IMG/VR virus record: IMGVR_UViG_3300028832_000001
Span: 100,007 to 164,006 of that record
Direction: 5' to 3' (one strand)
DNA length: 64,000 bases
Source of the DNA: a virus
Taxonomy: Duplodnaviria > Heunggongvirae > Uroviricota > Caudoviricetes
Shown here: positions 39,178 to 51,605 of the stretch, in pieces
How the letters are laid out: each line of letters opens with the position of its first letter
How positions within the stretch are numbered: the stretch's first letter is position 1
Program-made: the position numbers and the translations under genes
Notes under the pieces: generated by a model
Told to the model about the DNA's origin: nothing
What the model saw: the letters and a program-made list of their open reading frames with translations, nothing else
The model's database searches: none

Positions 39178-42100
39178 ATGAAAAAGATAATCGGAATATT
39201 ATTAGTTTTAGCTGCATTTGTTTTTTCTGCAGACTATAAGCCGTTTAACTTTGAAACTATCCCACAAGATTCTGCAAGTCAACAGGATCAATTTGATTAT
39301 ATGCTTCAATATAAGTTATATGGTCATGATTTTATCAAAATGGGAAATGATGTTCGTATTCCAGACAAGTCAGGTTGGAATGGTACTGTAGGTAATATTA
39401 CTTCTAATGCAAGATTGACCTTGGGCGGTCCGATTCTTGCAAATGGTAGTATTTCTATGGGTGATGGTCCAAATAATATTACTGGACCAGTTCGCTCAGT
39501 CGATTTTGATCTTGGAAATGTAAATAATTCCAAAATCGCAAGCCCTGTTTGCTTAAGCGGAACCGCAAATGCTAATGCATTGTCTGCGATTGAAGATCAT
39601 AAGACTTATTCTTTCGATGCAAACATTTGTAAGGACAGCGTTCCTGCTGCACCTACAAATCTTTATATGCCGATTGTTGATTGGGATAATCTTGGTGCTG
39701 ATGTTAAGTTGGATGATATTGTTTTAAGTGGCAATGATGCTACAGATACTATTTTTGTTCCTAAAGGTGAAGGCGCATATAAGATTTTAATTGATAAGAT
39801 TCAGTTTGGCCTTGGCGGAACTAATGCAAGCCATTTGTATGTTAAGATGCAAGATGGCGGTAGATTGACCCAGATTTTCGTAAAGAATTTTATTTATGGA
39901 AATCATGCTACAATTCAGGTTGTTTATGATACTGACAGTGGAAGCGTAGTATTGAATCAGGACCAATATCGTGGTAACTTGATGTTCTATTCTAATAATG
40001 TTATCAGTTTTGATAATATGGACTATGCTCCTATTCAAGGTTCATTTATTTCTACTGATTCAATTTTCTTGGGAAGAAACGTTAATATTTCTGGTCAGTT
40101 ATTGACTAATAAGCTTGAAATTGGAAATGATATTGATGGTAAAAACTTCAGATTTGTTAAATTCGACCCTGATACAATCGATGTTAAGCTTGATAAGTAT
40201 GGTGGTTTGAGAGAAAATGATTCTACTGTTATTATTCCTATTGAACTAAGTGATACTGCTACTATCGCTGTATATTTTAGATATTGTTTTGATTTGAAAG
40301 ATGGTGTAACTGTTGAAGATTTTAATATTCCGCCTACATTCCCTATTTGTAACATCGATCAACCGAAAGAAGTATCTATTCCTATCGGTTCAAAGATTCC
40401 AAGTGATCCAATTAAGGTAAATGTTAAAGTCGATACATTGACAGAAAATGAATATCTTGTAATTAAGATTGATAGCATTTCTGGTGCTATTCTTCCTGAT
40501 GGTAAGACTGAAGGAGAATTAAAGATTAAGATTATTGACGCTCCTATTGGACATGTTGAATTTGATACTACAAAGACATATGAGTTTGAGGAAAATAAAC
40601 TTGGTGAAGTAGATGTAATCAAGATTTTAAATGGAACTGAAAATACTCGTTTCCATCTTGATAGTGCATATACTGATAGATATGAATTGGATAGCTTGAC
40701 TGGTAAGTTGACACTTATTGGTGAACCATTAGATTATGAAAAGGCTGCAATCGATGTTATTAAGGTTACATTGACTGATACTGGCAATGTAAGTGTAACT
40801 CGTAATATTCCTATTACAGTAATTGACGTTAATGAAGCACCTACTATCGATGATGTAACTGCTAATCTTCCGGAAAATCTTATTCATCCATTCATGGTTG
40901 AAAAGTTAGTTGCAAAAGATCCAGATACTAAGACAACATTTACTCAAAATGTTTTCAGTATGCTTGAAGGTGATACAAGCTTATTTAGAGTAGATTCTGA
41001 TGGTGAAATTTGGGCAAAGAAGACATTTGACTATGAAACTGATCAGAAAACCTATACTTTGAAGGTTTTGGTTCATGATAAGACTAATCCAGCATTGAAG
41101 GATAGTGCTATTGTTACTGTTAATATCACAAACAGCAATGATGGTCCTAAGTTTGACAGAAATGATACTACATTCCATGTAAATGAAAATGAACCATTTA
41201 AGGATAGTGTAAAGGCAACTGACCAGGATGGTGATAAGATTACTTATTCTATCATTGGAAGTGTTCCATTCAAAATTGATTCTACTGGCGTAATTACTTC
41301 TACTAGAACATTTGACTATGAAAAAGAAAAAGAATTTACATTCAAGGTCATTGCTGATGATGGTAAAGCAAAAGATACAATGACTGTAAATATTATAGTA
41401 GACAATGTAAATGAGCCTGTTCATACCAAAGATACAACTTTTGTTGTAGATGAAGGTAAAACTGGTGAAATCGGTAAAGTCAAAGGAGAAGATGAAGATG
41501 GAAAGCCTGTTAAATTTTCTTGCGATGATAGTGTGCATTACAGCATCGATACTAATACTGGTATTCTTAGACTGGTAGACCCATTTGACTATGAGATTAC
41601 AAAATCTGATACCATAAAGGTATTTGTTACTGATAGTCTATTTACAGATACTGCCATAGTTATTATTAATGTTAATAATGTAAATGAACCTCCTGTATTA
41701 CAGCCAAATGATTCTCTTACAGTTCCAGAAAATTGTAAGAATTGTATTGTTGGTATTATTACAGCAGTTGACCCTGACAGTGATAAGGTAATTTACGAAG
41801 TTAAGGAACCTGGTTTCACAATCGATACAAATGGAGTATTAAAGCTCACTGATCCTCTTGATTATGAGAAAACTCCAGAAGTTAAGATTACAGTTATTGC
41901 AAAGGATTCTAGTGGCGCAGCTGATACTGCCACCTATATAATTAAGATAACTGATATTAATGAACCAGTCCATGTTCAAGATACAACTTGTTCTGTAAAG
42001 GAAAATTATACTGGTAAGGTTTGCAAGATTACAGCAACTGATGAAGATAAAACAACTCCTAAATATATAATTACCGATACTACAAATTATTCTATCGATT

Positions 42101-43986
42101 CTACTGGTGTAATTACTATTAAGAACCCGATTGATTATGAAAAGAAGACTAAGGACACAGTAACTGTTATTGTAACTGATGACGAATTTTCTGATACCGC
42201 ACAGGTAATTATCAGAGTTCTCGATGAACCTGAAAAGGTTGAAATTACCACATGGGATGATGAAAAGCCTAAAGATACAGTAAAGACAAATGACCCAGAT
42301 CATAAGTTCGAATGGGAACTTTGTGAAGGTGATAGCTGTATTAAGCATGAAGAATTTCCGCATATCAAGAAAGATACAACTATCAAGGTATGTAATGATA
42401 AGAAGACTGTTTGTGATTCAGTTGTAGTTTTATTCAATGATGCACCTCCAGTTGTTACTTTGACAAATGCAAAGTCTACTGATGCATTGATTGACTATAT
42501 TACAATCGAAGAACAGAAGGACGATAAGATTTATGTCAACAAGAAAGAAAATCCAATTACTGTAACTGTTAGAGATACTGTTCATAAGACAGAAAAGAAA
42601 TTTGATATTAAAGTTAAGCTTGATACAATTCCTACTAAGGATATTAAGATTAAGGAATATAACTACTTGATTGATGAATCTCTTGCAACTCATACAGCAA
42701 TAGGTAACAATCTTATTGAAGTTTCTGAAGTTATTTCTGTTGACGGTAATAAGATAACAATTTCTAAGATTGTTGATAAGAAGACAATGGAACCAATCGA
42801 TACAGTTCAAACTGTTACTTATCATAAGAAGGTTGGTGGTAAGGACGTAGTTGTTTCTTATAAGACTGATAATCTTACTGGTCAGAGAGTTTCTGATTAT
42901 GAAATTTCTTACATGGCTGATTCTTGCACTAAGGTTACATATACTGTAAATGATAAGAAGGAAATTGTTAAGAATAAGGAAGGAAATATTGCATATAATA
43001 TCACTTATGATTATGTAGATGATTTTGGTAACAAAGCATCTGCATCAGTTGAAATTATCTTCGACGATATTCCGCCTAAGGTTGAAATTCTTGGACCTGG
43101 TCCAATGGAACATTTCAATACAAATGCAATTCCAGTTAAGTGGACAGTTAATGGCGAAACACAAGATACTTTGACATTACAGAGACTTGAAAAAGGTGTT
43201 AACTATATTATCAGAAGATATGTAGATAAGGCTGGTAACGTCGCTGCTGATACAGTCACAGTTCTTATGAATGAAGCCAAGGATATTGATATTGAAATTA
43301 TCAATCCAGTAACCAAGGTTGACCAGGATAAAGTTGATGAATATTATTCTGAAGGTCATAAGTATAATGATAAGAAACCGTTTGACGTCAAGTTTGTTGA
43401 CCCGAAGAACGATACAATTCCAGATGTAATTGGTGTTGGTTTCAAGGTTGATATTGTACTTCCGTCTGTTTCTCCTACTGGTTCTCTTGCAACATTGGAT
43501 GACATTGTAAAGAATGGTCAGATTCCAGTTGATGATAAGGGAAATATCGTTGGTGCTTCTACAAAGGGAATTCCAGTAGATAAGTATGTTGAAGAACATT
43601 GTACTGAAGAATTCCAGAAGGATTACGATAAGTATGGTTTGAATATTCCGCTTTATGACGTTACTTATAAACTTCATCTTTGGGTATATACAACTACTGC
43701 AAACTATGTAAATGATTTTAATATTGAATTTACATTGAATGATGAAGCTAAGACTACTACAGCAGGAACTGTCCAGATGGTTATCGACTGGTTGTCTGAT
43801 AAGGATGGAAACGTCAAGGCTAAGAACCATCATGCTTTAGGAACAGGCGCATATATAACCAAGTTGTTCAGCACTTCTGTTGCAAAACACCGTTGTGATT
43901 ATAAGGATCAAGTTAAGGGTGATAGAACTGTAAAGAAGGATGAAACAATGAAAACATTTGGTTATAAGCGACCAAACAACAAGTAA
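39178..43986 (+). CDS. giant secreted protein with multiple cadherin-like repeats
   Basis: Signal peptide (MKKIIGILLVLAAFVFSA). At least six domain junctions carry cadherin-type linker motifs (VIDVNEAPTI, NSNDGPKF, DNVNEPVHT, NVNEPPVL, DINEPVHV, LDEPEKV). Each is preceded by ...DYE(K/T)... blocks. 1602 aa. Confidence 0.6.
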   Translation: MKKIIGILLVLAAFVFSADYKPFNFETIPQDSASQQDQFDYMLQYKLYGHDFIKMGNDVRIPDKSGWNGTVGNITSNARLTLGGPILANGSISMGDGPNNITGPVRSVDFDLGNVNNSKIASPVCLSGTANANALSAIEDHKTYSFDANICKDSVPAAPTNLYMPIVDWDNLGADVKLDDIVLSGNDATDTIFVPKGEGAYKILIDKIQFGLGGTNASHLYVKMQDGGRLTQIFVKNFIYGNHATIQVVYDTDSGSVVLNQDQYRGNLMFYSNNVISFDNMDYAPIQGSFISTDSIFLGRNVNISGQLLTNKLEIGNDIDGKNFRFVKFDPDTIDVKLDKYGGLRENDSTVIIPIELSDTATIAVYFRYCFDLKDGVTVEDFNIPPTFPICNIDQPKEVSIPIGSKIPSDPIKVNVKVDTLTENEYLVIKIDSISGAILPDGKTEGELKIKIIDAPIGHVEFDTTKTYEFEENKLGEVDVIKILNGTENTRFHLDSAYTDRYELDSLTGKLTLIGEPLDYEKAAIDVIKVTLTDTGNVSVTRNIPITVIDVNEAPTIDDVTANLPENLIHPFMVEKLVAKDPDTKTTFTQNVFSMLEGDTSLFRVDSDGEIWAKKTFDYETDQKTYTLKVLVHDKTNPALKDSAIVTVNITNSNDGPKFDRNDTTFHVNENEPFKDSVKATDQDGDKITYSIIGSVPFKIDSTGVITSTRTFDYEKEKEFTFKVIADDGKAKDTMTVNIIVDNVNEPVHTKDTTFVVDEGKTGEIGKVKGEDEDGKPVKFSCDDSVHYSIDTNTGILRLVDPFDYEITKSDTIKVFVTDSLFTDTAIVIINVNNVNEPPVLQPNDSLTVPENCKNCIVGIITAVDPDSDKVIYEVKEPGFTIDTNGVLKLTDPLDYEKTPEVKITVIAKDSSGAADTATYIIKITDINEPVHVQDTTCSVKENYTGKVCKITATDEDKTTPKYIITDTTNYSIDSTGVITIKNPIDYEKKTKDTVTVIVTDDEFSDTAQVIIRVLDEPEKVEITTWDDEKPKDTVKTNDPDHKFEWELCEGDSCIKHEEFPHIKKDTTIKVCNDKKTVCDSVVVLFNDAPPVVTLTNAKSTDALIDYITIEEQKDDKIYVNKKENPITVTVRDTVHKTEKKFDIKVKLDTIPTKDIKIKEYNYLIDESLATHTAIGNNLIEVSEVISVDGNKITISKIVDKKTMEPIDTVQTVTYHKKVGGKDVVVSYKTDNLTGQRVSDYEISYMADSCTKVTYTVNDKKEIVKNKEGNIAYNITYDYVDDFGNKASASVEIIFDDIPPKVEILGPGPMEHFNTNAIPVKWTVNGETQDTLTLQRLEKGVNYIIRRYVDKAGNVAADTVTVLMNEAKDIDIEIINPVTKVDQDKVDEYYSEGHKYNDKKPFDVKFVDPKNDTIPDVIGVGFKVDIVLPSVSPTGSLATLDDIVKNGQIPVDDKGNIVGASTKGIPVDKYVEEHCTEEFQKDYDKYGLNIPLYDVTYKLHLWVYTTTANYVNDFNIEFTLNDEAKTTTAGTVQMVIDWLSDKDGNVKAKNHHALGTGAYITKLFSTSVAKHRCDYKDQVKGDRTVKKDETMKTFGYKRPNNK

Positions 43987-44044: not shown

Positions 44045-44245
44045 TTGCTATATTATAATATTATGCAAAAAACAAAAATTGATATCGTAGTATTTGTAGT
44101 TATTTTTATTTTCGTATTTAGTTTAATGATATTTGGATGTAGTTCTGAAAGTTCTACTTCTCCTGAAGATATGTATCAGAAGTGTATTACTGTTAACGAA
44201 GAAAATCCAGATGCATGTGACCAAGAATTTACAATATATAAATGA
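44045..44245 (+). CDS. small membrane/secreted protein
   Basis: 66 aa. Hydrophobic N-terminus ending FGCSS (lipobox-like). Confidence 0.3.
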   Translation: MLYYNIMQKTKIDIVVFVVIFIFVFSLMIFGCSSESSTSPEDMYQKCITVNEENPDACDQEFTIYK

Positions 44246-44724
44246 ATTATTTAAAAACATATTTCGCAATTATTGCCAAAGCGGCAGGGAGAGAGCCATC
44301 GATATTATATGATAAGCATCATATAATTCCTCAGTCATTGGGTGGTCCAGACGTGCCTACGAACTGGATTTATTTAACCCCTAGGGAACATATGATTGCA
44401 CATCATTTGCTTGCCAGAGCTTATCCAGACGTCGAATTATTGCAGTCTGGATTTAACCTGAAGAAAGTCTGTATTAAGTATTATGACTATTATAGATGGT
44501 CTATGAGGTTAAAAGACTTAGCAGGTATGATAGAATATAGTAAGAATAAAAAAGAGATTGTAACGCGTTTAAGAGTGCTTCTGGACGCAATTGGTGATGT
44601 AGACCTAGATAAACATATTCCGGTAAAACAACAGCCTAATATGGTCAAATCTAAAGCACCAGCAGTTACTGAAAAAACTGAAAAAATAGAAACTAAAAAA
44701 GGAAAAAAGAAATGCAAAGAATAA
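44242..44724 (+). CDS. HNH endonuclease
   Basis: HHIIPQSLGGPDVPTNWIYLTPREHMIAHHLL is the HNH core (H-H...N...H..H). 160 aa with a Lys-rich C-terminus. Confidence 0.65.
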   Translation: MNYLKTYFAIIAKAAGREPSILYDKHHIIPQSLGGPDVPTNWIYLTPREHMIAHHLLARAYPDVELLQSGFNLKKVCIKYYDYYRWSMRLKDLAGMIEYSKNKKEIVTRLRVLLDAIGDVDLDKHIPVKQQPNMVKSKAPAVTEKTEKIETKKGKKKCKE

Positions 44725-45188: not shown

Positions 45189-47660
45189 ATGATTAAAAAC
45201 GTAATTAAGCGAGATAATCGCAGACGAAAATTCAACATTGCAAAAGTATATACAGCCATAGAAAATGCATTTAAATCAATAAATGAAAAATATACAGAAG
45301 AAGGTATAGACCAATTAGTTGATGAAGTAGTCGAGAAGATTTCCGCAAATGATGCCAAGTCAGCAAGAGTTGAAGATATTCAGAATGTTATTGAAAAGAC
45401 ATTGATGAATAGCGGATTCGGAACAGTTGCTAAGGCATTTATTTTATATAGAGACGAACGTAACCGTGCACGTGAAACAAAATCAGAAATTGTAAAGACC
45501 ATTAAGGAAATTACAGAGTCTGATATTAAAAGTTCGAATATTTTAAGAGACAATGCAAACGAATCTGGTGCTACTCCTGCTGGAACATACGGTAAGATTG
45601 CATCTGAAACGAATAAGATGTATAACCTGTTGAATAACATCAACAGAAAGTATGCACAGGAACATAAGGACGGACATTTACATATCCATGACCTTAACCA
45701 GTATAATTTGACATTCAACTGCTTGTTTGCTCCAGTTGGAAAGTTATTGAAGAACGGTTTTGACTCTGGAACTGGTTTCTTACGTTCCCCGAAGTCAATC
45801 CAGACTGCAGCAGCATTGACAGCAGTTATTCTTCAGCTCCAGTCCAACCAGCAATATGGTGGTATCGCTGATGATAATCTCGATTTTGATTTAGCACCGT
45901 TTGTCGATATTTCATTTAGAAAGAATCTTAAGGAAGAATTAGAAAGATATATAGAATATAATCCAGATCATGAAGAAATGACCAATCTTGATGAAGTTGC
46001 AACAGCTTCTATGAACTGGCCTTCTGCACTTCTTTATACTAAGTTCCCTAAGATTTGTGTTATTAAGGCAATTCAGAAGACAGATGATGATACACATCAG
46101 GCTATGGAAGGTCTTATTGGTAATTTGAATTCTTTACAGTCTCGTTCTGGAAACCAAGTTCCATTTAGTTCTTTGAACTTCGGTCTTAATACTTCTAATT
46201 GTGGTCGTATGATTAGCAAGAATCTTATTAAGTCTCAGATGGAAGGTCTCGGTGACGGATTGACAGCAATTTTCCCAATCTTGATTTTCAAGTTGATGGA
46301 AGGTTACACAAAGAATCCAGAAGATCCTAACTATGATTTGTATCTCGACTCTATTAAGTGTCTTGCTCGTAGATTCTACCCGAACTTTGTAAAGGTCGAT
46401 AGTTCCTTCAATAAGCCATACATCAAGTATGAAACTAAGGAAGTTGAAATTCTTGAAAATGTTATTGGTGTTAAGGTTCGTGGTAAAGATGAAGCAACAA
46501 TTATCCCAATGCAAGACCAGAAGTTTGATAAGTTTGTCTATCAGTATGATGTAGGTCAAGGTGACTATTGGGAAATTGAAGAAATTTCTGGAAATAAGTT
46601 GAAGTTGAAGAAACTCATTGAAAATACAACTATTTCTACTATGGGTTGTAGAACCAGAGTTATTGGTAATATCAATGGTGCTGAACAGACAACTGGTAGA
46701 GGTAACTTTGCATTCCATACAATTAACCTTCCTAGACTTGCTATTGAAGCTCATATCGCAGCAAAGGATGAAGAAGAACGTAAGACTATTTTCTTCGAAA
46801 AGCTTGCTGAAATGCTTGAAGATGCAAAGGGAAGTTTGCTTGACAGATTCGCATTGATTTCTAACAAGACATATGAGAATTTCCCATTTACTATGCAACA
46901 GGGTCTTTATCTCACATCTGATGACCAACCGCATGAAGTTACTGATAAGATTGGTGAAGTTCTTAAACAGGCTTCGTTGTCAATCGGTTACGTCGGTCTT
47001 GCTGAAACCATGTTACTCTTGACAGGTAAGACTTATGGTGTTGACCATGAAATTGATGATTATGCTTTCTCTATTGTAAAGACTATTCGTGAATTTGTTG
47101 ATAAGACACAGAAGGAAACTCATTTGAACTGGTCTTGTTTCGCTACTCCAGCTGAAGCAGTTGCAGGTCGTTTTGCTAACATCGATAAAAATCTTTTCCA
47201 GAATGAAAAGAAGCTTGCTGATGTAGATTTACAGAGAGTCTTCGGTAAGGGTTATTACACAAATAGCCACATGCTTGATTATTCTTTGGAAACTACTCTT
47301 GAAAACAAGATTAAGATGGAAGCTCCATATCACAAGATTACAAATGCTGGTCATATCTTCTATTACAAGTTGAATGGTGACTTGTCTAAGAATCTTGAAG
47401 CGGTCAAGGCAACTATTGATGCCATGTATGAAGGTGACCTTGGTTATTTCACTTGCACATTTGACAGTGATACTTGTACTAAGTGCCATTTCCATGGAAT
47501 CATCAATAATGAATGTCCATGTTGTGGTAACAAGAATGAAGACGAGATTATTCGTGTTAGAAGAATTACCGGATATTTGACTGGTTCTCCTAAGAAGACT
47601 ATTTTTAAGTCTTGGAATGATGGAAAATTAGCAGAATTGAGAGACCGTCATAATATTTAA
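45189..47660 (+). CDS. nrdD: anaerobic ribonucleoside-triphosphate reductase (class III RNR)
   Basis: 823 aa. ATP-cone-like N-terminus (VIKRDNRRRKFNIAKV). C-terminal Zn-ribbon (CTKCHFHG...CPCCG). Glycyl-radical-type motif RVRRITGYLTG near the C-terminus. Confidence 0.85.
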   Translation: MIKNVIKRDNRRRKFNIAKVYTAIENAFKSINEKYTEEGIDQLVDEVVEKISANDAKSARVEDIQNVIEKTLMNSGFGTVAKAFILYRDERNRARETKSEIVKTIKEITESDIKSSNILRDNANESGATPAGTYGKIASETNKMYNLLNNINRKYAQEHKDGHLHIHDLNQYNLTFNCLFAPVGKLLKNGFDSGTGFLRSPKSIQTAAALTAVILQLQSNQQYGGIADDNLDFDLAPFVDISFRKNLKEELERYIEYNPDHEEMTNLDEVATASMNWPSALLYTKFPKICVIKAIQKTDDDTHQAMEGLIGNLNSLQSRSGNQVPFSSLNFGLNTSNCGRMISKNLIKSQMEGLGDGLTAIFPILIFKLMEGYTKNPEDPNYDLYLDSIKCLARRFYPNFVKVDSSFNKPYIKYETKEVEILENVIGVKVRGKDEATIIPMQDQKFDKFVYQYDVGQGDYWEIEEISGNKLKLKKLIENTTISTMGCRTRVIGNINGAEQTTGRGNFAFHTINLPRLAIEAHIAAKDEEERKTIFFEKLAEMLEDAKGSLLDRFALISNKTYENFPFTMQQGLYLTSDDQPHEVTDKIGEVLKQASLSIGYVGLAETMLLLTGKTYGVDHEIDDYAFSIVKTIREFVDKTQKETHLNWSCFATPAEAVAGRFANIDKNLFQNEKKLADVDLQRVFGKGYYTNSHMLDYSLETTLENKIKMEAPYHKITNAGHIFYYKLNGDLSKNLEAVKATIDAMYEGDLGYFTCTFDSDTCTKCHFHGIINNECPCCGNKNEDEIIRVRRITGYLTGSPKKTIFKSWNDGKLAELRDRHNI

Positions 47661-47682
47661 TAAAAACAACTAGAAAAAAATC

Positions 47683-47712
47683 ATACGGGTTGAAAAACCG
47701 TATGGTTTTTCT
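47683..47712 (+). terminator. terminator-like hairpin (catacgggtt-gaaaa-accgtatg + T-run) after nrdD
   Basis: 8-bp stem then GTTTTTCT. It overlaps the first in-frame ATG of the following ORF, supporting a downstream start. Confidence 0.45.
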
Positions 47713-47734
47713 ATCTTTAAGCAAAAGGAAGCGA

Positions 47735-48028
47735 ATGTTAGATACTTTAATGTTAATCTGTGGTTTTTGTGGAGCTGGTGCTTTTGCAGTTTGTTCATTA
47801 CCACAAGTTATTAAAGCTTATAAAACTAAGTCGACAGGTGATATAAGTATTTTCTTTATTATCTTGTCAATTATCGGTAATTTATGTAGTGCTGCTTATA
47901 TATTCTATACTAATTATATAAGTGGAATGTGGCAATATCCGCAATATGTAAATTATACTTTGGCAACTATACTTATATTTATCCTTCTCGGGTTAAAACT
48001 AAAATATGATAAGGAAAATAAAAAATGA
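47735..48028 (+). CDS. SemiSWEET-like PQ-loop membrane protein (3-TM, ~97 aa)
   Basis: AFAVCSLPQVIKAYKTKSTGDISIFFIILSIIGN parallels the bacterial SemiSWEET core (FLPQV...TK.T.DIS). Three predicted TM helices. The start chosen is the ATG preceded by SD AAGGAAG; the ORF-track start at 47690 lies inside the nrdD terminator. Confidence 0.6.
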   Translation: MLDTLMLICGFCGAGAFAVCSLPQVIKAYKTKSTGDISIFFIILSIIGNLCSAAYIFYTNYISGMWQYPQYVNYTLATILIFILLGLKLKYDKENKK

Positions 48029-48684
48029 GTATAATGGATCTTATCGGTGTTCAAAGAGGAATTGATTTTGAACATAGTTTACCAACTGTAATGCGATATA
48101 AACCTGATATAAGAGAAGGTTATGAATATGGCAGTTTTGAACCTAAATATGGTCATACGCCAAATTGGCAACCTTTATGTAGTAATTCTTCAGACTTATA
48201 TAAAGAAATCGTTTTAGCATGTAAGCAGGTTGCAAAAGTTACAGAAATGAAAAATCCAATAGGTAATGATCCTTTTTGGCATCGTAGTGGACCTGAACGT
48301 GCAGGAACGATTGTTTCTAAGATAATACAGCTTTGTAATGATATTGCTATTGCTACTCGACAAGGTCAAGGCAATGTTATTGTATTAAATACTAAGATGT
48401 ATGATTTATTACGTGAGTTAACATTTGGTTTTATGGATTGCCCATTTATTTCTGAATCTGCTCCAGGCGTATTAAAGATTGTTGGAAGAGATGCTTTTAA
48501 AATGGATTTTGACGATTATTCAAATTATCCAGAAGCTATTATGACATATCATTCTAATAATTCGTGTGTATGTGGTGCTATTGCAGCACTTAGTCCTACC
48601 GAGACTTATTTTTCAATTAATACTGATATGGAAGGAACAGAGAATTATTATAGACTTTTAAGGGTAAAAGATGAATTACAGTAA
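48025..48684 (+). CDS. hypothetical protein, paralog A of a ~220-aa pair flanking nrdG
   Basis: 219 aa. Shares with 49152..49823 an N-terminal DLIGVQRG / DLIKVQKKDG block, a central ...V..I.....P.....E.R.G..L........A..T.R..G.ILIN...Y.LL.EL... block and a C-terminal YYRL block. Confidence 0.45.
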   Translation: MSIMDLIGVQRGIDFEHSLPTVMRYKPDIREGYEYGSFEPKYGHTPNWQPLCSNSSDLYKEIVLACKQVAKVTEMKNPIGNDPFWHRSGPERAGTIVSKIIQLCNDIAIATRQGQGNVIVLNTKMYDLLRELTFGFMDCPFISESAPGVLKIVGRDAFKMDFDDYSNYPEAIMTYHSNNSCVCGAIAALSPTETYFSINTDMEGTENYYRLLRVKDELQ

Positions 48685-49183
48685 AATTGATCCAATGAGT
48701 ATTGTCGATGGTGACGGTTGTCGAGTAACACTTTTTGTTTCAGGTTGTAGAAATCATTGTAAAGGGTGTTTTAATCCAGAAACATGGAATTTTGACTATG
48801 GTCAACCATATACAGAAATTACAGAAAATGAAATTATTGAAGCCTGTAAGAAATCATATATTGCTGGGTTAACTGTTCTTGGTGGAGAACCAATGGAAAA
48901 AGAAAACCAAGCAGAAATTTATAAACTCATTACTAATTTCAAACGTGCATATCCTGGTAAAAATGTTTGGTTATTTACTGGTTATATTTATGAAAAAGAT
49001 TTATTAGAAGGTCAGCGTCAAAATATAAATGGGTTAACTTCTTCTTTATTAGAAATGGTTGATATTCTGGTTGACGGACCATTTATTCTTGAACAGAGAG
49101 ATTTGAATTTAAAGTTTAGGGGAAGCACGAATCAAAGGCTATTAACAAGAGATGAAAGACAAAGGTTACAAAATGACAATTAA
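48671..49183 (+). CDS. nrdG: anaerobic RNR activating enzyme (radical SAM)
   Basis: CRNHCKGC (CxxxCxxC) after DGDGCRVTLFVSGC. LTVLGGEP follows. 170 aa, immediately after the nrdD neighbourhood. Confidence 0.8.
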   Translation: MNYSKIDPMSIVDGDGCRVTLFVSGCRNHCKGCFNPETWNFDYGQPYTEITENEIIEACKKSYIAGLTVLGGEPMEKENQAEIYKLITNFKRAYPGKNVWLFTGYIYEKDLLEGQRQNINGLTSSLLEMVDILVDGPFILEQRDLNLKFRGSTNQRLLTRDERQRLQNDN

Positions 49184-49823
49184 AGACTTAATTAAAGTCC
49201 AGAAGAAAGACGGATTATTTAAAAACTGTGCATCCGTTTTAAGATATATTCCAAGAGAACTATTATTCGATGGTAGAGAAGCTGACCGTCCAGAATTAAC
49301 ATTGGGTCTTGAAAGACAACTTATCCATGAAAAAGATTGGAAAGATGCAAGTGATGAAAGTAAGAAAGAATTAGATGTAATTCATGCATGTATGGATGTT
49401 GCTAATGTTATTGAAATTCACAAAGATCCAGAGTCTACTGCTTCTAAAGAAGAACGTTGTGGTGTATTGTTGACTAATTTAATGAAGGAATGTAATTCTA
49501 TTAGAACAAGTACTCGCCGTTGTGCAGGTAATTATATTCTTATCAATAATGCATTTAAGAAAGAATTAGAAGAACTTGGTGCATTTTCAACTCCATTTAT
49601 TAATGTTTCAACTGATAACACTGAATATCTTGTTAATGGTGTTATTAAAATGAGTGTTGCAACATTTGATGAAGATACACCAATGGCATTAATCGGATAT
49701 TCTGGAACTAGTAGGTTTGATGGTGGAATCGTTTTAGCAGAAGACGAAGAAAATAATAAGTATGCGATTGCTGACCGATTCTACGATAGTGATAAGTATT
49801 ATAGATTAATTAAACTTGTATAG
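49152..49823 (+). CDS. hypothetical protein, paralog B of the ~220-aa pair
   Basis: 223 aa. Paralogous to 48025..48684 (see that entry). Ends ...DKYYRLIKLV. Confidence 0.45.
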   Translation: MKDKGYKMTIKDLIKVQKKDGLFKNCASVLRYIPRELLFDGREADRPELTLGLERQLIHEKDWKDASDESKKELDVIHACMDVANVIEIHKDPESTASKEERCGVLLTNLMKECNSIRTSTRRCAGNYILINNAFKKELEELGAFSTPFINVSTDNTEYLVNGVIKMSVATFDEDTPMALIGYSGTSRFDGGIVLAEDEENNKYAIADRFYDSDKYYRLIKLV

Positions 49824-49826
49824 AAT

Positions 49827-50756
49827 ATGAGATATATTAAAGGGAGAAGTAATTTAAGTTGCACAATTTTTGTGCCATGGGATTGTAATAATCATTGCAA
49901 GTTCTGTACATCTAAGCAGATGTATAAACAAAGAACTTGTGATATTAATGCAATTCTTGCACAAATCAAAAAACTTAATGAAAATCCGTTAATTGAAGAA
50001 TTTGTATTAACAGGTGGAGAACCATTAGCAGATATTGAGAAATGTCAGATTCTTATTGACGCTATGGAGAAACCTGTTTATATCAATACTACATTCCCAA
50101 CATTTACAGATTTGCCTGGAACAGTAGAAATGTCTAAAGTCAAGACGTTAATCGATTTCATTAATAATAATGAAAAGATTGGTGGTTTGAATATTTCCAG
50201 ACATATGCATCAACAGTTTTATGAACCAGTTTTGCCAGTAGATATGTTTGCACATTTAATTAAGAAACATATTAAATTAAATGTAGTTCTTTCTAAGGAG
50301 TTTAATATAAACGAATTTAAAGCGTTTATAGAACCTTATAAAGAATTAGAAAATCTATCTATCTGTATTAGAGCAGATTATCGGAATATTACTAAAGATA
50401 ACTTAAAGAATCGTGACGATGTATTTGAAAAGTTAATTTTAGAATATGAATATGAAAGTTCTGGCGGATGTATGGTTTGTAATGACGATAGATTTTGGAA
50501 TAATAATTTATTAATCAGTTATCATCGTGGAATGGAACATTCTAAAGTAGTTTATGGTAATAAGATATTTGTAAATGATATTTTGATTACTATTGATGGA
50601 CAAGTTTATGATGACTGGGATTTAGTAACAAATACAGAATTTGAAAGATGGGTATTTGGCGAATATTTATTGACAGATGATATATCTGAATATGAAAATG
50701 ATCCAGTATATATTGATTGGTTATTGAAAAAGAATGGTGAAGAAGGTATATTATGA
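49827..50756 (+). CDS. second radical-SAM enzyme (N-terminal CxxxCxxC, no obvious SPASM/RRE); function unknown
   Basis: VPWDCNNHCKFC at aa 17-28, FVLTGGEPLA at aa ~60, and a lone CMVC pair at ~aa 212. 309 aa. The stop overlaps the start of the Cys/Gly peptide ORF (ATGA). Confidence 0.6.
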   Translation: MRYIKGRSNLSCTIFVPWDCNNHCKFCTSKQMYKQRTCDINAILAQIKKLNENPLIEEFVLTGGEPLADIEKCQILIDAMEKPVYINTTFPTFTDLPGTVEMSKVKTLIDFINNNEKIGGLNISRHMHQQFYEPVLPVDMFAHLIKKHIKLNVVLSKEFNINEFKAFIEPYKELENLSICIRADYRNITKDNLKNRDDVFEKLILEYEYESSGGCMVCNDDRFWNNNLLISYHRGMEHSKVVYGNKIFVNDILITIDGQVYDDWDLVTNTEFERWVFGEYLLTDDISEYENDPVYIDWLLKKNGEEGIL

Positions 50757-50953
50757 CATTAACTGAATTACGACAAAAACTTAAAACCGCAGGTATGAAA
50801 CAACTTAAAATTACTGGTTGTGGTGGATATGTAGGATGTGGAACTGGTGGTTATTATGACTATGCCAATGCACATTTTGGAAATCCTCCACAATGGGTAT
50901 CGTATAGTTGCGGATTTTATATGAGATGTGGTGGTCCTACTACATGTGGTTAA
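50753..50953 (+). CDS. Cys/Gly-rich 66-aa peptide with SAP/HeH-like N-terminal helix (candidate rSAM substrate / RiPP-like precursor)
   Basis: MTLTELRQKLKTAGMKQLKITG followed by CGGYVGCGTGGYYDYANAHFGNPPQWVSYSCGFYMRCGGPTTCG (6 Cys, 11 Gly). Translationally coupled to the rSAM ORF. Confidence 0.45.
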   Translation: MTLTELRQKLKTAGMKQLKITGCGGYVGCGTGGYYDYANAHFGNPPQWVSYSCGFYMRCGGPTTCG

Positions 50954-50956
50954 AAA

Positions 50957-50985
50957 GAAAGAGTCAAGAAAACCTTGACTCTTTT
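50957..50985. terminator. bidirectional terminator (aaagagtcaag-aaaacc-ttgactcttt)
   Basis: 10-bp inverted repeat between the convergent peptide gene and the minus-strand paralog operon. Confidence 0.55.
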
Positions 50986-50993
50986 TATATTAT

Positions 50994-51605
50994 TTAAATT
51001 GATGGTTTAACATGTGTTATAGGCAGTCTAAGTAATTTATCTGGAAGTATATTTAATTTTGAAAGTAATGTATATGCGACTTCACGACTAATACCAGATT
51101 CATATAAAGTTTCAATTATTTCAACTGTTCTTATCTCGCTAGTTTTTATTTTACGTGCAAGTTTATAAATTTTAGTGAATTTAGAATAGTCATTACTTTC
51201 ATTTATATTAATTATAATTTTGCCAGTTTTAGGATTTTTATATTCTGCACAACCATAATATGAATTATATCCAGTAAATTCATATCTTTTATTTTTGACA
51301 ATAATAGTTGCTGGTGTTTCATCTTCATCATCGTCATAATAATAACTGCCACAACCGCTACTATGACAACTAGAAACATATCCGCAACCTACTCTGACAC
51401 TTCTGGATATTGTACCACATCCACCACCATAACTACTGCTACTACCACATCCAGAACTATAGCTGGAACCGCAACCACTGCTGCCGCACCCAGAACTATA
51501 ACTGCTGCTTCCGCTACAACCACCACTATAACTACCGCATTCATTAAGCCTACGAACAGTGTAGCCTTTATTTTTAAGTAATTCTCTTGCTTCTAATAAA
51601 TTCAT
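50994..51605 (-). CDS. motif-family paralog 4: N-terminal MNLLEARELLKNKGY helix + (S/G/C)-rich low-complexity core with repeated SSGCG units
   Basis: 203 aa. Residues ~20-95 read NECGSYSGGCSGSSSYSSGCGSSGCGSSYSSGCGSSSSYGGGCGTISRSVRVGCGYVSSCHSSGCGSYYYDDDEDE (13 Cys). A normal-composition C-terminal domain follows. Confidence 0.5.
   Translation of the reverse strand: MNLLEARELLKNKGYTVRRLNECGSYSGGCSGSSSYSSGCGSSGCGSSYSSGCGSSSSYGGGCGTISRSVRVGCGYVSSCHSSGCGSYYYDDDEDETPATIIVKNKRYEFTGYNSYYGCAEYKNPKTGKIIININESNDYSKFTKIYKLARKIKTSEIRTVEIIETLYESGISREVAYTLLSKLNILPDKLLRLPITHVKPSI

What the first reader, a model, noticed from the sequence alone, without database searches (positions are those of the whole stretch)
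47735..48028. Phage-encoded SemiSWEET (PQ-loop) transporter embedded between nrdD and nrdG
The ~97-aa 3-TM ORF carries the diagnostic LPQV...TK-T-DIS block of bacterial SemiSWEET sugar uniporters. Phage-borne SemiSWEETs are, to my knowledge, essentially undescribed. Its position inside the anaerobic RNR operon is unexpected. It could boost sugar or cofactor uptake during infection, or it could be a repurposed small membrane protein (holin-like or superinfection-exclusion). Its annotated upstream start lies inside the nrdD terminator hairpin, so the gene is probably shorter than the ORF track suggests.
Basis: partly seen in the sequence, partly recalled or inferred. Interest (0 to 1): 0.7.

Follow-up and report, generated by a model that had tools for sequence, protein, structure and literature searches.

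The report
Phage SemiSWEET-like transporter beside RNR genes
A T4-like jumbo phage from ruminant guts carries a well-conserved 97-residue membrane protein with the SemiSWEET transporter fold but without the sugar-binding residues; similar small proteins sit next to DNA-precursor enzymes in several unrelated phages, so it more likely moves a nucleotide precursor than a sugar.

Summary

The two sugar-binding residues of SemiSWEETs (Trp48 and Asn64 in the Leptospira protein) align with Ser52 and Tyr74. NCBIfam SemiSWEET_2 scores 30 bits against a cut-off of 80. Viral PQ-loop proteins are already annotated in three cultured Bacillales phages and in giant viruses, but I found no functional study of them.

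The main result is genomic context. PQ-loop genes sit beside nrdD/nrdG, beside dUTPase plus a ThyX-like gene, beside dCMP deaminase, and beside nucleoside 2-deoxyribosyltransferase plus class Ia or class III RNR.

Best reading (about 0.4): a homodimeric uniporter for a nucleoside or nucleobase-type precursor, analogous to the predicted PnuN. Rivals are a sugar uniporter, a carrier of another metabolite, and a holin-like protein. I rate it a new variant of a known kind, interest about 0.6.

The parts
45189..47660 (+). nrdD, the class III (anaerobic) ribonucleotide reductase catalytic subunit, 823 aa
   Evidence: Pfam NRDD 9e-150, ATP-cone 1e-20, Gly_radical 1e-6. It lies upstream of the PQ-loop gene in 26 of the 28 related loci of this clade, L001-L025, L032, L040 and L041.
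47675..47718 (+). Conserved terminator-like hairpin (A-tract, 9-13 bp stem, loop holding the spurious TTG start, then TTTTTCTATCTTT) between nrdD and the PQ-loop gene
   Evidence: RNAfold -19.3 kcal/mol, z -3.84. The consensus scan also flags 47692-47711. The stem is conserved in 10 loci with a compensatory G:C to A:T change, while the loop varies.
47724..47731 (+). Ribosome-binding site AAAGGAAG, ending 3 nt upstream of the ATG
   Evidence: Read directly from the sequence. An AAGG core is kept in the aligned relatives.
47735..48028 (+). PQ-loop / SemiSWEET-fold membrane protein gene (97 aa, 3 TM). Its TGA stop overlaps the ATG of the next ORF (ATGA).
   Evidence: Topology is N-out/C-in by the positive-inside rule: loop 1 carries +2, the C-terminus +3, the N-terminus -1 and loop 2 carries 0.
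48025..48684 (+). 219-aa ORF of unknown function in a variable slot between the PQ-loop gene and nrdG. It is a paralogue of the ORF at 49152-49823.
   Evidence: Weak Pfam Gp23 hit (22.3 bits, below cut-off). It is 30% identical to the 223-aa ORF. The slot holds 0, 1 or 2 ORFs in relatives.
48671..49183 (+). nrdG, the radical-SAM activase of NrdD, 170 aa
   Evidence: Pfam Fer4_12 9e-49. In L008, L018, L020-L025 and L032 it directly follows the PQ-loop gene, with a 4-nt overlap where gene calls were returned, as in L008.
49152..49823 (+). 223-aa ORF, paralogue of the 219-aa ORF
   Evidence: Pfam Gp23 28.3 bits (cut-off 24.4) and phrog_138 1.8e-5. The AF2 model was unusable, pLDDT 35.
49827..50756 (+). 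Second radical-SAM protein, 309 aa, in the same co-directional, overlapping gene string
   Evidence: Pfam Radical_SAM 35.2 bits (cut-off 29.5) and Fer4_12. Weak generic similarity to pVip models.
50753..50953 (+). 66-aa Cys/Gly-rich ORF that closes the gene string
   Evidence: ORF listing. Conserved as a 65-66 aa gene in L001, L002, L005 and L006. No Pfam family.
50956..50986 (.). Bidirectional terminator-like hairpin that ends the nrdD-PQ-nrdG gene string
   Evidence: 13-bp stem followed by a T-run on both strands.

Best explanation
The gene encodes a small inner-membrane solute carrier of the PQ-loop family with the SemiSWEET architecture. Two 3-helix protomers, each N-out/C-in, would pair into a 6-helix alternating-access uniporter. 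The Pro23-Gln24 kink in TM1 would act as the hinge, and the conserved Tyr55, which aligns with the Leptospira SemiSWEET residue Tyr51 (an outer-gate residue, from my own recollection of the literature), as part of the outer gate.

It is not a canonical sugar SemiSWEET, because the pocket residues differ. In place of the Trp/Asn pair it has Asn49, Ser52, Asn73-Tyr74 and a longer TM2-TM3 loop carrying W66-Q67-x-P69.

It is expressed with the phage's dNTP-synthesis genes and is translationally coupled to the genes that follow, which include nrdG. It most likely lets a nucleotide precursor cross the membrane down its gradient: a deoxy- or ribonucleoside, or a nucleobase. Kinases and the neighbouring enzymes would then trap or convert that precursor. 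This is facilitated diffusion plus metabolic trapping, the logic proposed for Pnu-type carriers such as PnuN.

Shown: family, fold, topology, selection, loss of the sugar residues, and the recurrent gene neighbourhood. Inferred: the dimer, transport itself, the substrate class and the direction of flux.
For: Fold and family.

Constraint: dN/dS is 0.05-0.10. At the same loci the protein is about 92% conserved, against 90% for NrdD and 72-74% for NrdG.

Linkage to dNTP genes in this clade takes three arrangements:
- nrdD-PQ-[0-2 ORFs]-nrdG.
- [NrdD only 24% identical]-nrdG-PQ in L019.
- nrdD-x-nrdG-PQ::CM_2 on a 679-kb contig.

Linkage in other phages carrying the same subfamily:
- dUTPase-ThyX-like-PQ in seven loci, with the order reversed (PQ upstream of the ThyX-like gene) in L043, L048 and L049. 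The ThyX-like protein scores 29.3 bits on Thy1, above its cut-off.
- PQ followed by dCMP deaminase at 8e-18 in L034.

Linkage in a second, distant PQ-loop group in cultured Bacillales phages:
- GR1: nucleoside 2-deoxyribosyltransferase overlaps PQ by 4 nt, with class Ia RNR 2 kb downstream. GR1 also encodes a thymidine kinase.
- Lietuvens: RNR b/a-PhoH-dUTPase-HNH-PQ-hyp-NDT.
- The GR1-like contig L059: NDT-PQ-NrdD-NrdG. The RNR class is swapped but PQ is kept.

By my count, about 5 of roughly 9-10 independent lineages have a dNTP gene within two genes. A rough binomial test gives P 0.002-0.05.

Cellular homologues sit in ordinary chromosomal contexts, one of them beside a 5'-nucleotidase.

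Against: There is no direct evidence of transport or of any substrate, and no riboswitch or regulator names a ligand.

Phage nucleotide-metabolism genes sit in early or middle modules full of small ORFs, so adjacency may partly reflect module membership. The lineage count behind the binomial estimate is subjective.

Several family members lack any such neighbour: vB_BcoS-136 (PNK, ClpP, DNA ligase), L052 (a tRNA cluster) and L029.

No nucleoside kinase was found in this 64-kb window. The rest of the 290-425 kb genome was not seen.

The Bacillales-phage group is only 20-28% identical to this protein, so it may have a different substrate.

The chorismate-mutase fusions are not explained by a nucleoside role.
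Confidence: 0.42

Rival explanations
1. It is a canonical SemiSWEET sugar uniporter. The phage would use it as an auxiliary gene to raise glucose or sucrose uptake and fuel infection.
For: The best structural matches are sugar SemiSWEETs, and so are the best solved-structure sequence hits. The ruminant gut is rich in sugars (sample titles).
Against: The residues that bind sugar, LbSemiSWEET Trp48 and Asn64, align with Ser52 and Tyr74, anchored on the conserved Gly, Tyr and Pro. NCBIfam SemiSWEET_2 scores 30 bits against a cut-off of 80. Pfam MtN3_slv is below its cut-off at 16.9 against 23.7. The subfamily profile is at least as close to cystinosin. None of the contexts examined contains a carbohydrate-metabolism neighbour.
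Confidence: 0.12
2. It is a carrier for a different small molecule needed by the neighbouring enzymes. Candidates are a monocarboxylate such as formate or pyruvate (formate is the reductant of class III RNR, and the same fold carries pyruvate in MPC), or a vitamin or cofactor precursor such as nicotinamide riboside, riboflavin or a folate precursor.
Against: In the GR1/L059 pair the PQ-loop gene is kept while the RNR class changes from Ia to III, which argues against a formate-specific role. dUTPase, dCMP deaminase and NDT need neither formate nor flavin. No riboswitch was found.
Confidence: 0.2
3. It is a holin-like, membrane-permeabilising or superinfection-exclusion protein that only derives from a transporter fold.
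For: It has three TM helices, N-out/C-in, with a basic C-terminal tail, which is the class I holin topology. In the second clade an M15-peptidase-like protein (phrog_894 'endolysin', 5e-11) and a patatin phospholipase lie 0-2 genes downstream. T4-like phages place small membrane exclusion proteins among their early genes (general knowledge).
Against: It matches no holin family in Pfam or PHROGs. The hinge and gate residues are conserved out to cellular homologues in ordinary chromosomal contexts, which is unusual for holins. In this clade it is coupled to nrdG and no lysis gene was detected in the operon or the window. In the second clade the tight, invariant neighbour is the ThyX-like gene, whereas the peptidase is separated by inserted ORFs or absent. 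It matches no defence model.
Confidence: 0.1
4. It has no transport role and is a dimeric membrane anchor that tethers cytoplasmic partners, such as nucleotide-synthesis enzymes or the fused chorismate-mutase domain, to the membrane.
For: C-terminal additions are frequent: CM_2 fusions, a fourth TM or acidic tails, and globular extensions of 50-170 residues.
Against: Polar intramembrane residues (N49, S52, Y55, N73, Y74) and the PQ hinge are invariant or nearly so, which is what a working carrier would show. A simple anchor would tolerate far more substitution than dN/dS 0.05-0.10 allows.
Confidence: 0.06

Closest known systems
Bacterial SemiSWEETs (Leptospira biflexa 4QNC, Thermodesulfovibrio 4RNG, E. 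coli 4X5M, Bradyrhizobium 9KAX)
   Different: The sugar-binding Trp48 and Asn64 positions are Ser52 and Tyr74. The TM2-TM3 loop is 6 residues longer and carries a conserved W-Q-x-P. The sequence falls below the NCBIfam SemiSWEET_2 cut-off. The gene context is dNTP synthesis, not carbohydrate metabolism.
Eukaryotic PQ-loop carriers (cystinosin, PQLC2 family)
   Different: They are 7-TM proteins with two repeats, proton-coupled, lysosomal amino-acid exporters. The phage protein is a single repeat that must dimerise.
Pnu-type carriers (PnuC, and the predicted deoxynucleoside carrier PnuN)
   Different: There is no sequence membership. Pnu proteins have 7-8 TM helices in one chain. PnuN itself is only a prediction.
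PQ-loop proteins already annotated in viruses (Geobacillus phage GR1, Bacillus phage vB_BcoS-136, Sporosarcina phage Lietuvens; Mimiviridae ChoanoV1, Hokovirus, Bathycoccus virus; phrog_25992)
   Same: Single-repeat 3-TM PQ-loop proteins encoded by viruses. The GR1 and Lietuvens genes also lie in dNTP-metabolism modules.
   Different: They are only 20-28% identical to this protein and lack its G-N...Y...WQxP..NY signature. None has a described function in the literature I could search.
Mitochondrial pyruvate carrier (MPC1/MPC2)
   Different: It is a heterodimer, shares only 7-9% identity, and has no PQ-loop sequence match.
Class I holins (for example lambda S105)
   Same: Three TM helices, N-out/C-in, with a basic C-terminal tail.
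   Different: There is no homology. This gene is not in a lysis cassette and has conserved carrier motifs and cellular orthologues.

Membership tests
Pfam PQ-loop (PF04193) | Profile score above the curated gathering threshold | tested here: met
   50.2 bits against a cut-off of 22, E 2.1e-13. The precomputed PF04193 assignment is present on all 17 close homologues.
Pfam PQ-loop (PF04193) | Pro-Gln dipeptide inside the first TM helix | tested here: met
   P23-Q24 are invariant in the close family and sit at the helix break 19-21 / 22-31 of the model.
SemiSWEET (architecture) | About 100 aa, a single repeat and three TM helices forming the triple-helix bundle | tested here: met
SemiSWEET (architecture) | Parallel homodimer that forms the translocation path | not testable with these tools
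   Only single chains could be modelled. There is one indirect hint: recurrent C-terminal fusions to an AroQ chorismate-mutase domain, which is itself an obligate dimer. That reading is my inference.
SemiSWEET (sugar transporter) | Substrate-binding Trp in TM2 and Asn in TM3 (LbSemiSWEET W48 and N64) | tested here: not met
   In a MAFFT alignment anchored on the conserved G44/G48, Y51/Y55 and P59/P69, W48 aligns with S52 and N64 with Y74; N73 lies one position earlier. The register was not checked on coordinates.
SemiSWEET (sugar transporter) | Curated NCBIfam SemiSWEET_2 (NF037968) or Pfam MtN3_slv threshold | tested here: not met
   NF037968 scores 30 bits against 80. PF03083 scores 16.9 bits against 23.7.
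SemiSWEET (sugar transporter) | Sugar transport activity | not testable with these tools
   This needs uptake assays.
Holin | Match to a known holin family | tested here: not met
   No holin family appears in Pfam or PHROGs. The only PHROG hit is phrog_25992, of unknown function.
Holin | Gene placed in a lysis cassette next to an endolysin | tested here: inconclusive
   This is not the case in this window or its clade. In the second clade an M15-like peptidase lies 0-2 genes downstream, but not consistently.
Pnu family (PnuC/PnuN) | Sequence membership with 7-8 TM helices in one chain | tested here: not met

The most novel reading that the evidence does not exclude
Single-repeat PQ-loop proteins of phages may form a previously unrecognised class of very small (about 95 aa per protomer) nucleoside or nucleobase uniporters. 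Phages as different as T4-like jumbo phages of the rumen and Bacillales siphophages would carry them alongside ribonucleotide reductase, dUTPase, ThyX-like, dCMP deaminase and deoxyribosyltransferase genes, to couple scavenging of external precursors with de novo dNTP synthesis. This would also give a first physiological substrate class for a branch of the prokaryotic SemiSWEET/PQ-loop family.
Probability: 0.3. Interest if true: 0.8.

Novelty: new variant of a known kind. Interest (0 to 1): 0.6.

Why it matters
Physiological substrates of prokaryotic SemiSWEET/PQ-loop proteins are almost entirely unknown (PMC5972207). Transporters are rare among phage auxiliary genes.

A conserved carrier translationally coupled to ribonucleotide-reductase genes in uncultured jumbo phages, with the same pairing in cultured Bacillales phages, gives a concrete hypothesis: phages import or release nucleosides or bases to balance dNTP supply. 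The cultured phages GR1 and Lietuvens make this testable now. If it is right, it adds membrane transport to the list of phage nucleotide-metabolism takeover functions. It also defines a substrate class for a divergent PQ-loop subfamily and offers a minimal scaffold for nucleoside transport. If it is wrong, the loss of the sugar-binding residues still shows that annotating such genes as 'sugar transporter SemiSWEET' is unsafe.

Tried and rejected
- GenBank phages hold no DNA relative of the region (megablast).
- tblastn of the protein at E 1e-3 found nothing. At E 5 there was one weak hit, which led to the annotated PQ-loop gene of phage GR1.
- The whole-subfamily alignment A2 was too diverse for the locus finder, so narrower alignments were used.
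- The genome scan found only four contigs. Two are this same phage binned into Methanobrevibacter MAGs, which I read as probable mis-binning because the phage has bacterial-type RBS, terminators and T4-like genes.
- No Rfam family or riboswitch was found near the gene or its relatives.
- No defence-system model matched.
- The 214-aa neighbour in the second clade gave no solved-structure match by sequence or by profile. It is called ThyX-like only from the Pfam Thy1 hits, which are 19.5 bits in L026 (below cut-off) and 29.3 bits in L048 (above cut-off), plus an RH[KH]...QSQR motif that I read by eye.
- The AF2 model of the 223-aa paralogue, built from a two-sequence alignment, was unusable at pLDDT 35.
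- The afdb50 fold library was unavailable.
- A formate-channel idea was considered and down-weighted because PQ is retained when the RNR class switches.
- A sigma-70-like promoter match at 47690-47717 was rejected because its -35 lies in the non-conserved hairpin loop.
- Literature searches for phage SemiSWEET or PQ-loop proteins found nothing relevant.

Full report
**1. What is there**

The mechanical ORF runs 47690..48028 on the + strand. Its TTG start lies in the loop of a stable hairpin at 47675-47711, which is followed by TTTTTCTATCTTT and sits 15 nt after the nrdD stop codon. RNAfold gives -19.3 kcal/mol, z = -3.84, and none of 200 shuffles folds as well.

In ten related loci the stem is conserved while the loop varies. 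One stem pair changes from G:C to A:T in a compensatory way. This is a conserved terminator-like or attenuating element.

The real start is ATG 47735, which is preceded by AAAGGAAG. All 17 database clusters of close homologues (81-95% identity, mostly 96-98 aa) begin at that Met.

The TGA stop overlaps the ATG of the next ORF. The following genes overlap or abut one another as far as a bidirectional terminator at 50956-50986. These are the 219-aa ORF, nrdG, the 223-aa ORF, a 309-aa radical-SAM protein and a 66-aa Cys/Gly-rich ORF. The gene is therefore part of one co-directional string headed by nrdD.

**2. Is it real, and is it phage?**

dN/dS against seven relatives is 0.05-0.10 where it could be measured. 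In the other comparisons synonymous sites are saturated while the proteins remain at least 90% identical. At the same loci the protein is about 92% conserved, against about 90% for NrdD and 72-74% for NrdG.

The window carries T4 gp15-like, T4-type TerL, UvsX, gp32, DnaB-like and other helicase genes. Relatives lie on IMG/VR and metagenome contigs of 190-680 kb. Two near-identical contigs were binned into 'Methanobrevibacter' MAGs from goat duodenum and ileum. I read that as mis-binning of a low-GC phage; the window is 28-35% GC. It does place the phage in the ruminant gut, which fits an anaerobic RNR.

**3. Family and fold**

- Pfam PQ-loop scores 50.2 bits against a cut-off of 22 (E 2e-13). 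MtN3_slv and LAB_N fall below their cut-offs.
- By sequence, the best solved structures are SemiSWEETs: 4rng at 9e-6 and 9kax at 9e-4.
- An AF2 model built on 28 subfamily sequences has pLDDT 95.5 and helices at 2-18, 22-31, 39-63 and 68-96. That is three TM helices, the first kinked at S-L-P23-Q24.
- The twelve best Foldseek hits in the PDB are all SemiSWEETs (TM-score 0.65-0.84 on the target). KDEL receptor, cystinosin, SWEET13 and MPC follow.
- Loop charges indicate N-out/C-in topology.

**4. It is not a canonical sugar SemiSWEET**

A search of 1.8 billion representatives found 263 relatives at E ≤ 1e-3. Forty-one of them, at E ≤ 1e-10, form a distinct subfamily that aligns without gaps. 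Its signature is G48-N/E49, Y55, W66-Q67-x-P69 and N73-Y74. F17, P69, N73 and Y74 are invariant.

I aligned these with three solved SemiSWEETs, anchoring on the shared Gly, Tyr and Pro. The sugar-binding Trp (LbW48) falls on Ser52 and the Asn (LbN64) falls on Tyr74. The TM2-TM3 loop is six residues longer.

It matches the fragments HMMER printed, and its numbering matches the Q20A and D57A mutant entries.

NCBIfam SemiSWEET_2 gives 30 bits against a cut-off of 80. A profile of the subfamily hits the cystinosin PQ-loop repeats (7e-7) at least as well as SemiSWEETs (8e-6 to 2e-4).

The hinge (PQ) and the Tyr aligned with Leptospira Tyr51 are kept, but the pocket is different. This is a carrier-like protein with another substrate.

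**5. Context in this clade**

Every homologue of at least 85% identity lies beside the class III RNR genes. The arrangement is nrdD-PQ-[0, 1 or 2 variable ORFs]-nrdG. In L008, L018, L020-L025 and L032 PQ directly abuts nrdG, with a 4-nt overlap where gene calls were returned, as in L008.

In L019 the order is NrdD-NrdG-PQ and that NrdD is only 24% identical to the one here. On a 679-kb contig the order is nrdD-DUF7487-nrdG-PQ. There the PQ protein is fused at its C-terminus to a chorismate-mutase (CM_2) domain (E 9e-16). This fusion is represented by four protein clusters on many contigs.

The AroQ chorismate-mutase fold is an obligate dimer. A C-terminal fusion therefore fits a parallel dimer with both C-termini in the cytoplasm. 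That is my inference.

**6. Context elsewhere**

- A second clade of the same subfamily (47-70% identity, 115-152 aa, with a C-terminal extension that often includes a fourth hydrophobic segment) has a conserved string: sigma factor, two unknown genes, dUTPase, a ThyX-like gene, PQ. An M15-peptidase-like gene (phrog_894 'endolysin', 5e-11) and a patatin gene follow, sometimes after inserted ORFs.
- The tight, invariant neighbour in that clade is the ThyX-like gene. In L043, L048 and L049 the order is reversed, with PQ upstream of the ThyX-like gene. The ThyX-like protein scores 29.3 bits on Thy1, above its cut-off.
- In L034 the PQ gene is followed by a dCMP deaminase (8e-18).
- Bacteroidota-type chromosomes carry homologues (34-42% identity) after an Hpt-domain gene. 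In one case the gene is convergent with a 5'-nucleotidase.
- A second, distant PQ-loop group (20-28% identity) is annotated in three cultured phages:
  - Geobacillus phage GR1 has nucleoside 2-deoxyribosyltransferase (66 bits) overlapping PQ by 4 nt. Class Ia RNR lies 2 kb downstream, and thymidine kinase, ThyX and dUTPase lie further on.
  - Sporosarcina phage Lietuvens has RNR beta/alpha-PhoH-dUTPase-HNH-PQ-hyp-NDT.
  - Bacillus phage vB_BcoS-136 has PNK-hyp-PQ-ClpP-ligase, with Prs and NAMPT 3-4 kb away.
- A GR1-like IMG/VR contig has NDT-PQ-NrdD-NrdG. The RNR class changes and the PQ gene stays.
- Other members show no such neighbour: L052 lies in a tRNA cluster, and L029 has unrelated neighbours.

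By my count, five of about nine or ten independent lineages have a dNTP-metabolism gene within two genes. With a background of 12-22% this gives a rough binomial P of 0.002-0.05. The lineage count is subjective, and phage early modules are enriched in such genes anyway.

**7. Mechanism proposed**

The most economical reading is a homodimeric alternating-access uniporter whose substrate belongs to nucleotide precursor supply. The substrate would be a deoxy- or ribonucleoside or a free base, moving down its gradient. It would then be trapped or converted by kinases, deoxyribosyltransferase, deaminase, thymidylate synthase and RNR.

This is the logic proposed for the Pnu family. There PnuC carries nicotinamide riboside, and PnuN, predicted from its link to ribonucleotide-reductase regulation, is thought to carry deoxynucleosides (PMC7749635, citing Rodionov and Gelfand 2005).

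The review of prokaryotic SemiSWEETs states that nothing is known of their physiological roles. It reports that only one of eight tested moved sucrose, and that their gene neighbours are diverse. It mentions no phage and no RNR context (PMC5972207).

Family, fold, topology, constraint, loss of the sugar residues and the neighbourhoods are shown. Dimerisation, transport, substrate class and direction are inferred. I put about 0.9 on 'PQ-loop carrier-type protein' and about 0.4 on the nucleoside or base substrate class.

**8. Rivals**

- **Sugar uniporter (0.12).** The fold agrees. The pocket residues, the curated thresholds and the context do not.
- **Other metabolite or cofactor (0.2).** Candidates are formate or pyruvate, as in MPC, or nicotinamide riboside or riboflavin. 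This is possible. Formate is disfavoured by the class Ia to class III swap and by the dUTPase, deaminase and NDT neighbours.
- **Holin-like or exclusion protein (0.1).** The topology fits, and a peptidase lies nearby in one clade. Against it: no holin homology, carrier motifs conserved out to cellular orthologues, coupling to nrdG, and no defence or lysis hits.
- **Pure membrane anchor (0.06).** The invariant polar intramembrane residues and the low dN/dS argue against it.

**9. Novelty**

Viral PQ-loop proteins are not new as database entries. I found no paper that treats them.

What appears new is a divergent subfamily that lacks the sugar pair, together with the recurrent coupling of phage PQ-loop genes to dNTP-synthesis genes across unrelated phages. 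I rate this a new variant of a known kind, with interest about 0.6. Part of that score rests on the fact that cultured phages (GR1, Lietuvens) allow a direct test.

Noticed in passing
window 48025-48684 and 49152-49823: Two paralogous ORFs (219 and 223 aa, 30% identical) flank nrdG. Both give weak hits to the middle of the T4 major capsid protein model Gp23 (22.3 and 28.3 bits; cut-off 24.4). The slot they occupy holds 0-2 ORFs in relatives. Their function is unknown, and an AF2 model from two sequences was unusable (pLDDT 35).
   Followed up: partly
window 49827-50756, 50753-50953 (+) and 50994-51605 (-): A 309-aa radical-SAM protein is followed by a 66-aa Cys/Gly-rich ORF. Convergent to them is a 203-aa ORF with long Ser/Gly/Cys repeats. 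Both small proteins begin with a similar L-x-E-x-R-x-x-L-K-x-x-G segment. This looks like a radical-SAM enzyme with peptide substrates (RiPP-like). The set is conserved in L001, L002, L005 and L006.
   Followed up: no
L044 6001-6531 (679-kb contig); proteins P0013, P0170-P0172: PQ-loop proteins 86-95% identical to this one are fused at the C-terminus to a chorismate-mutase type II domain (CM_2, E 9e-16). They lie directly after nrdG. The role of a chorismate mutase here is unexplained.
   Followed up: partly
L026 5351-5995 and homologues in L027-L037, L043, L048, L049: A family of short (177-261 aa), very divergent ThyX-like proteins has an RH[KH]...QSQR motif and a Cys-rich C-terminus (NCEYLHxCPEFKxCG). 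They always sit next to the PQ-loop gene of the second clade. No solved-structure match was found by sequence.
   Followed up: partly
L040, L041 (GenBank JAFQXD010000042.1, JAFRFB010000097.1): Contigs of 173-191 kb carry this same phage region (98% identity) and are deposited as parts of Methanobrevibacter MAGs from goat gut. This is probably mis-binning, though a link to methanogens was not tested.
   Followed up: no
window 47675-47718 and aligned loci: The hairpin between nrdD and the PQ-loop gene is conserved with a compensatory base-pair change and an invariant TTTTTCTATCTTT tail. This suggests regulated read-through into the PQ-nrdG part of the cluster.
   Followed up: partly
window 1-64000: Other unusual cargo in the window includes two Band_7/flotillin proteins, an HSP20, a NUDIX protein, a dimeric-type dUTPase_2, a DHH/DHHA1 phosphoesterase, a GT2 glycosyltransferase and a 1602-aa ORF at 39178-43986 (its counterpart in relatives L001 and L004 carries cadherin domains). 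An HNH-like ORF (44242-44724) lies just upstream of nrdD.
   Followed up: no
L019 3280-5430: A 424-kb relative keeps nrdG (61% identical) and the PQ-loop gene (85%), but its NrdD is only 24% identical to the one here. This implies replacement of the catalytic subunit while its two neighbours were retained.
   Followed up: no
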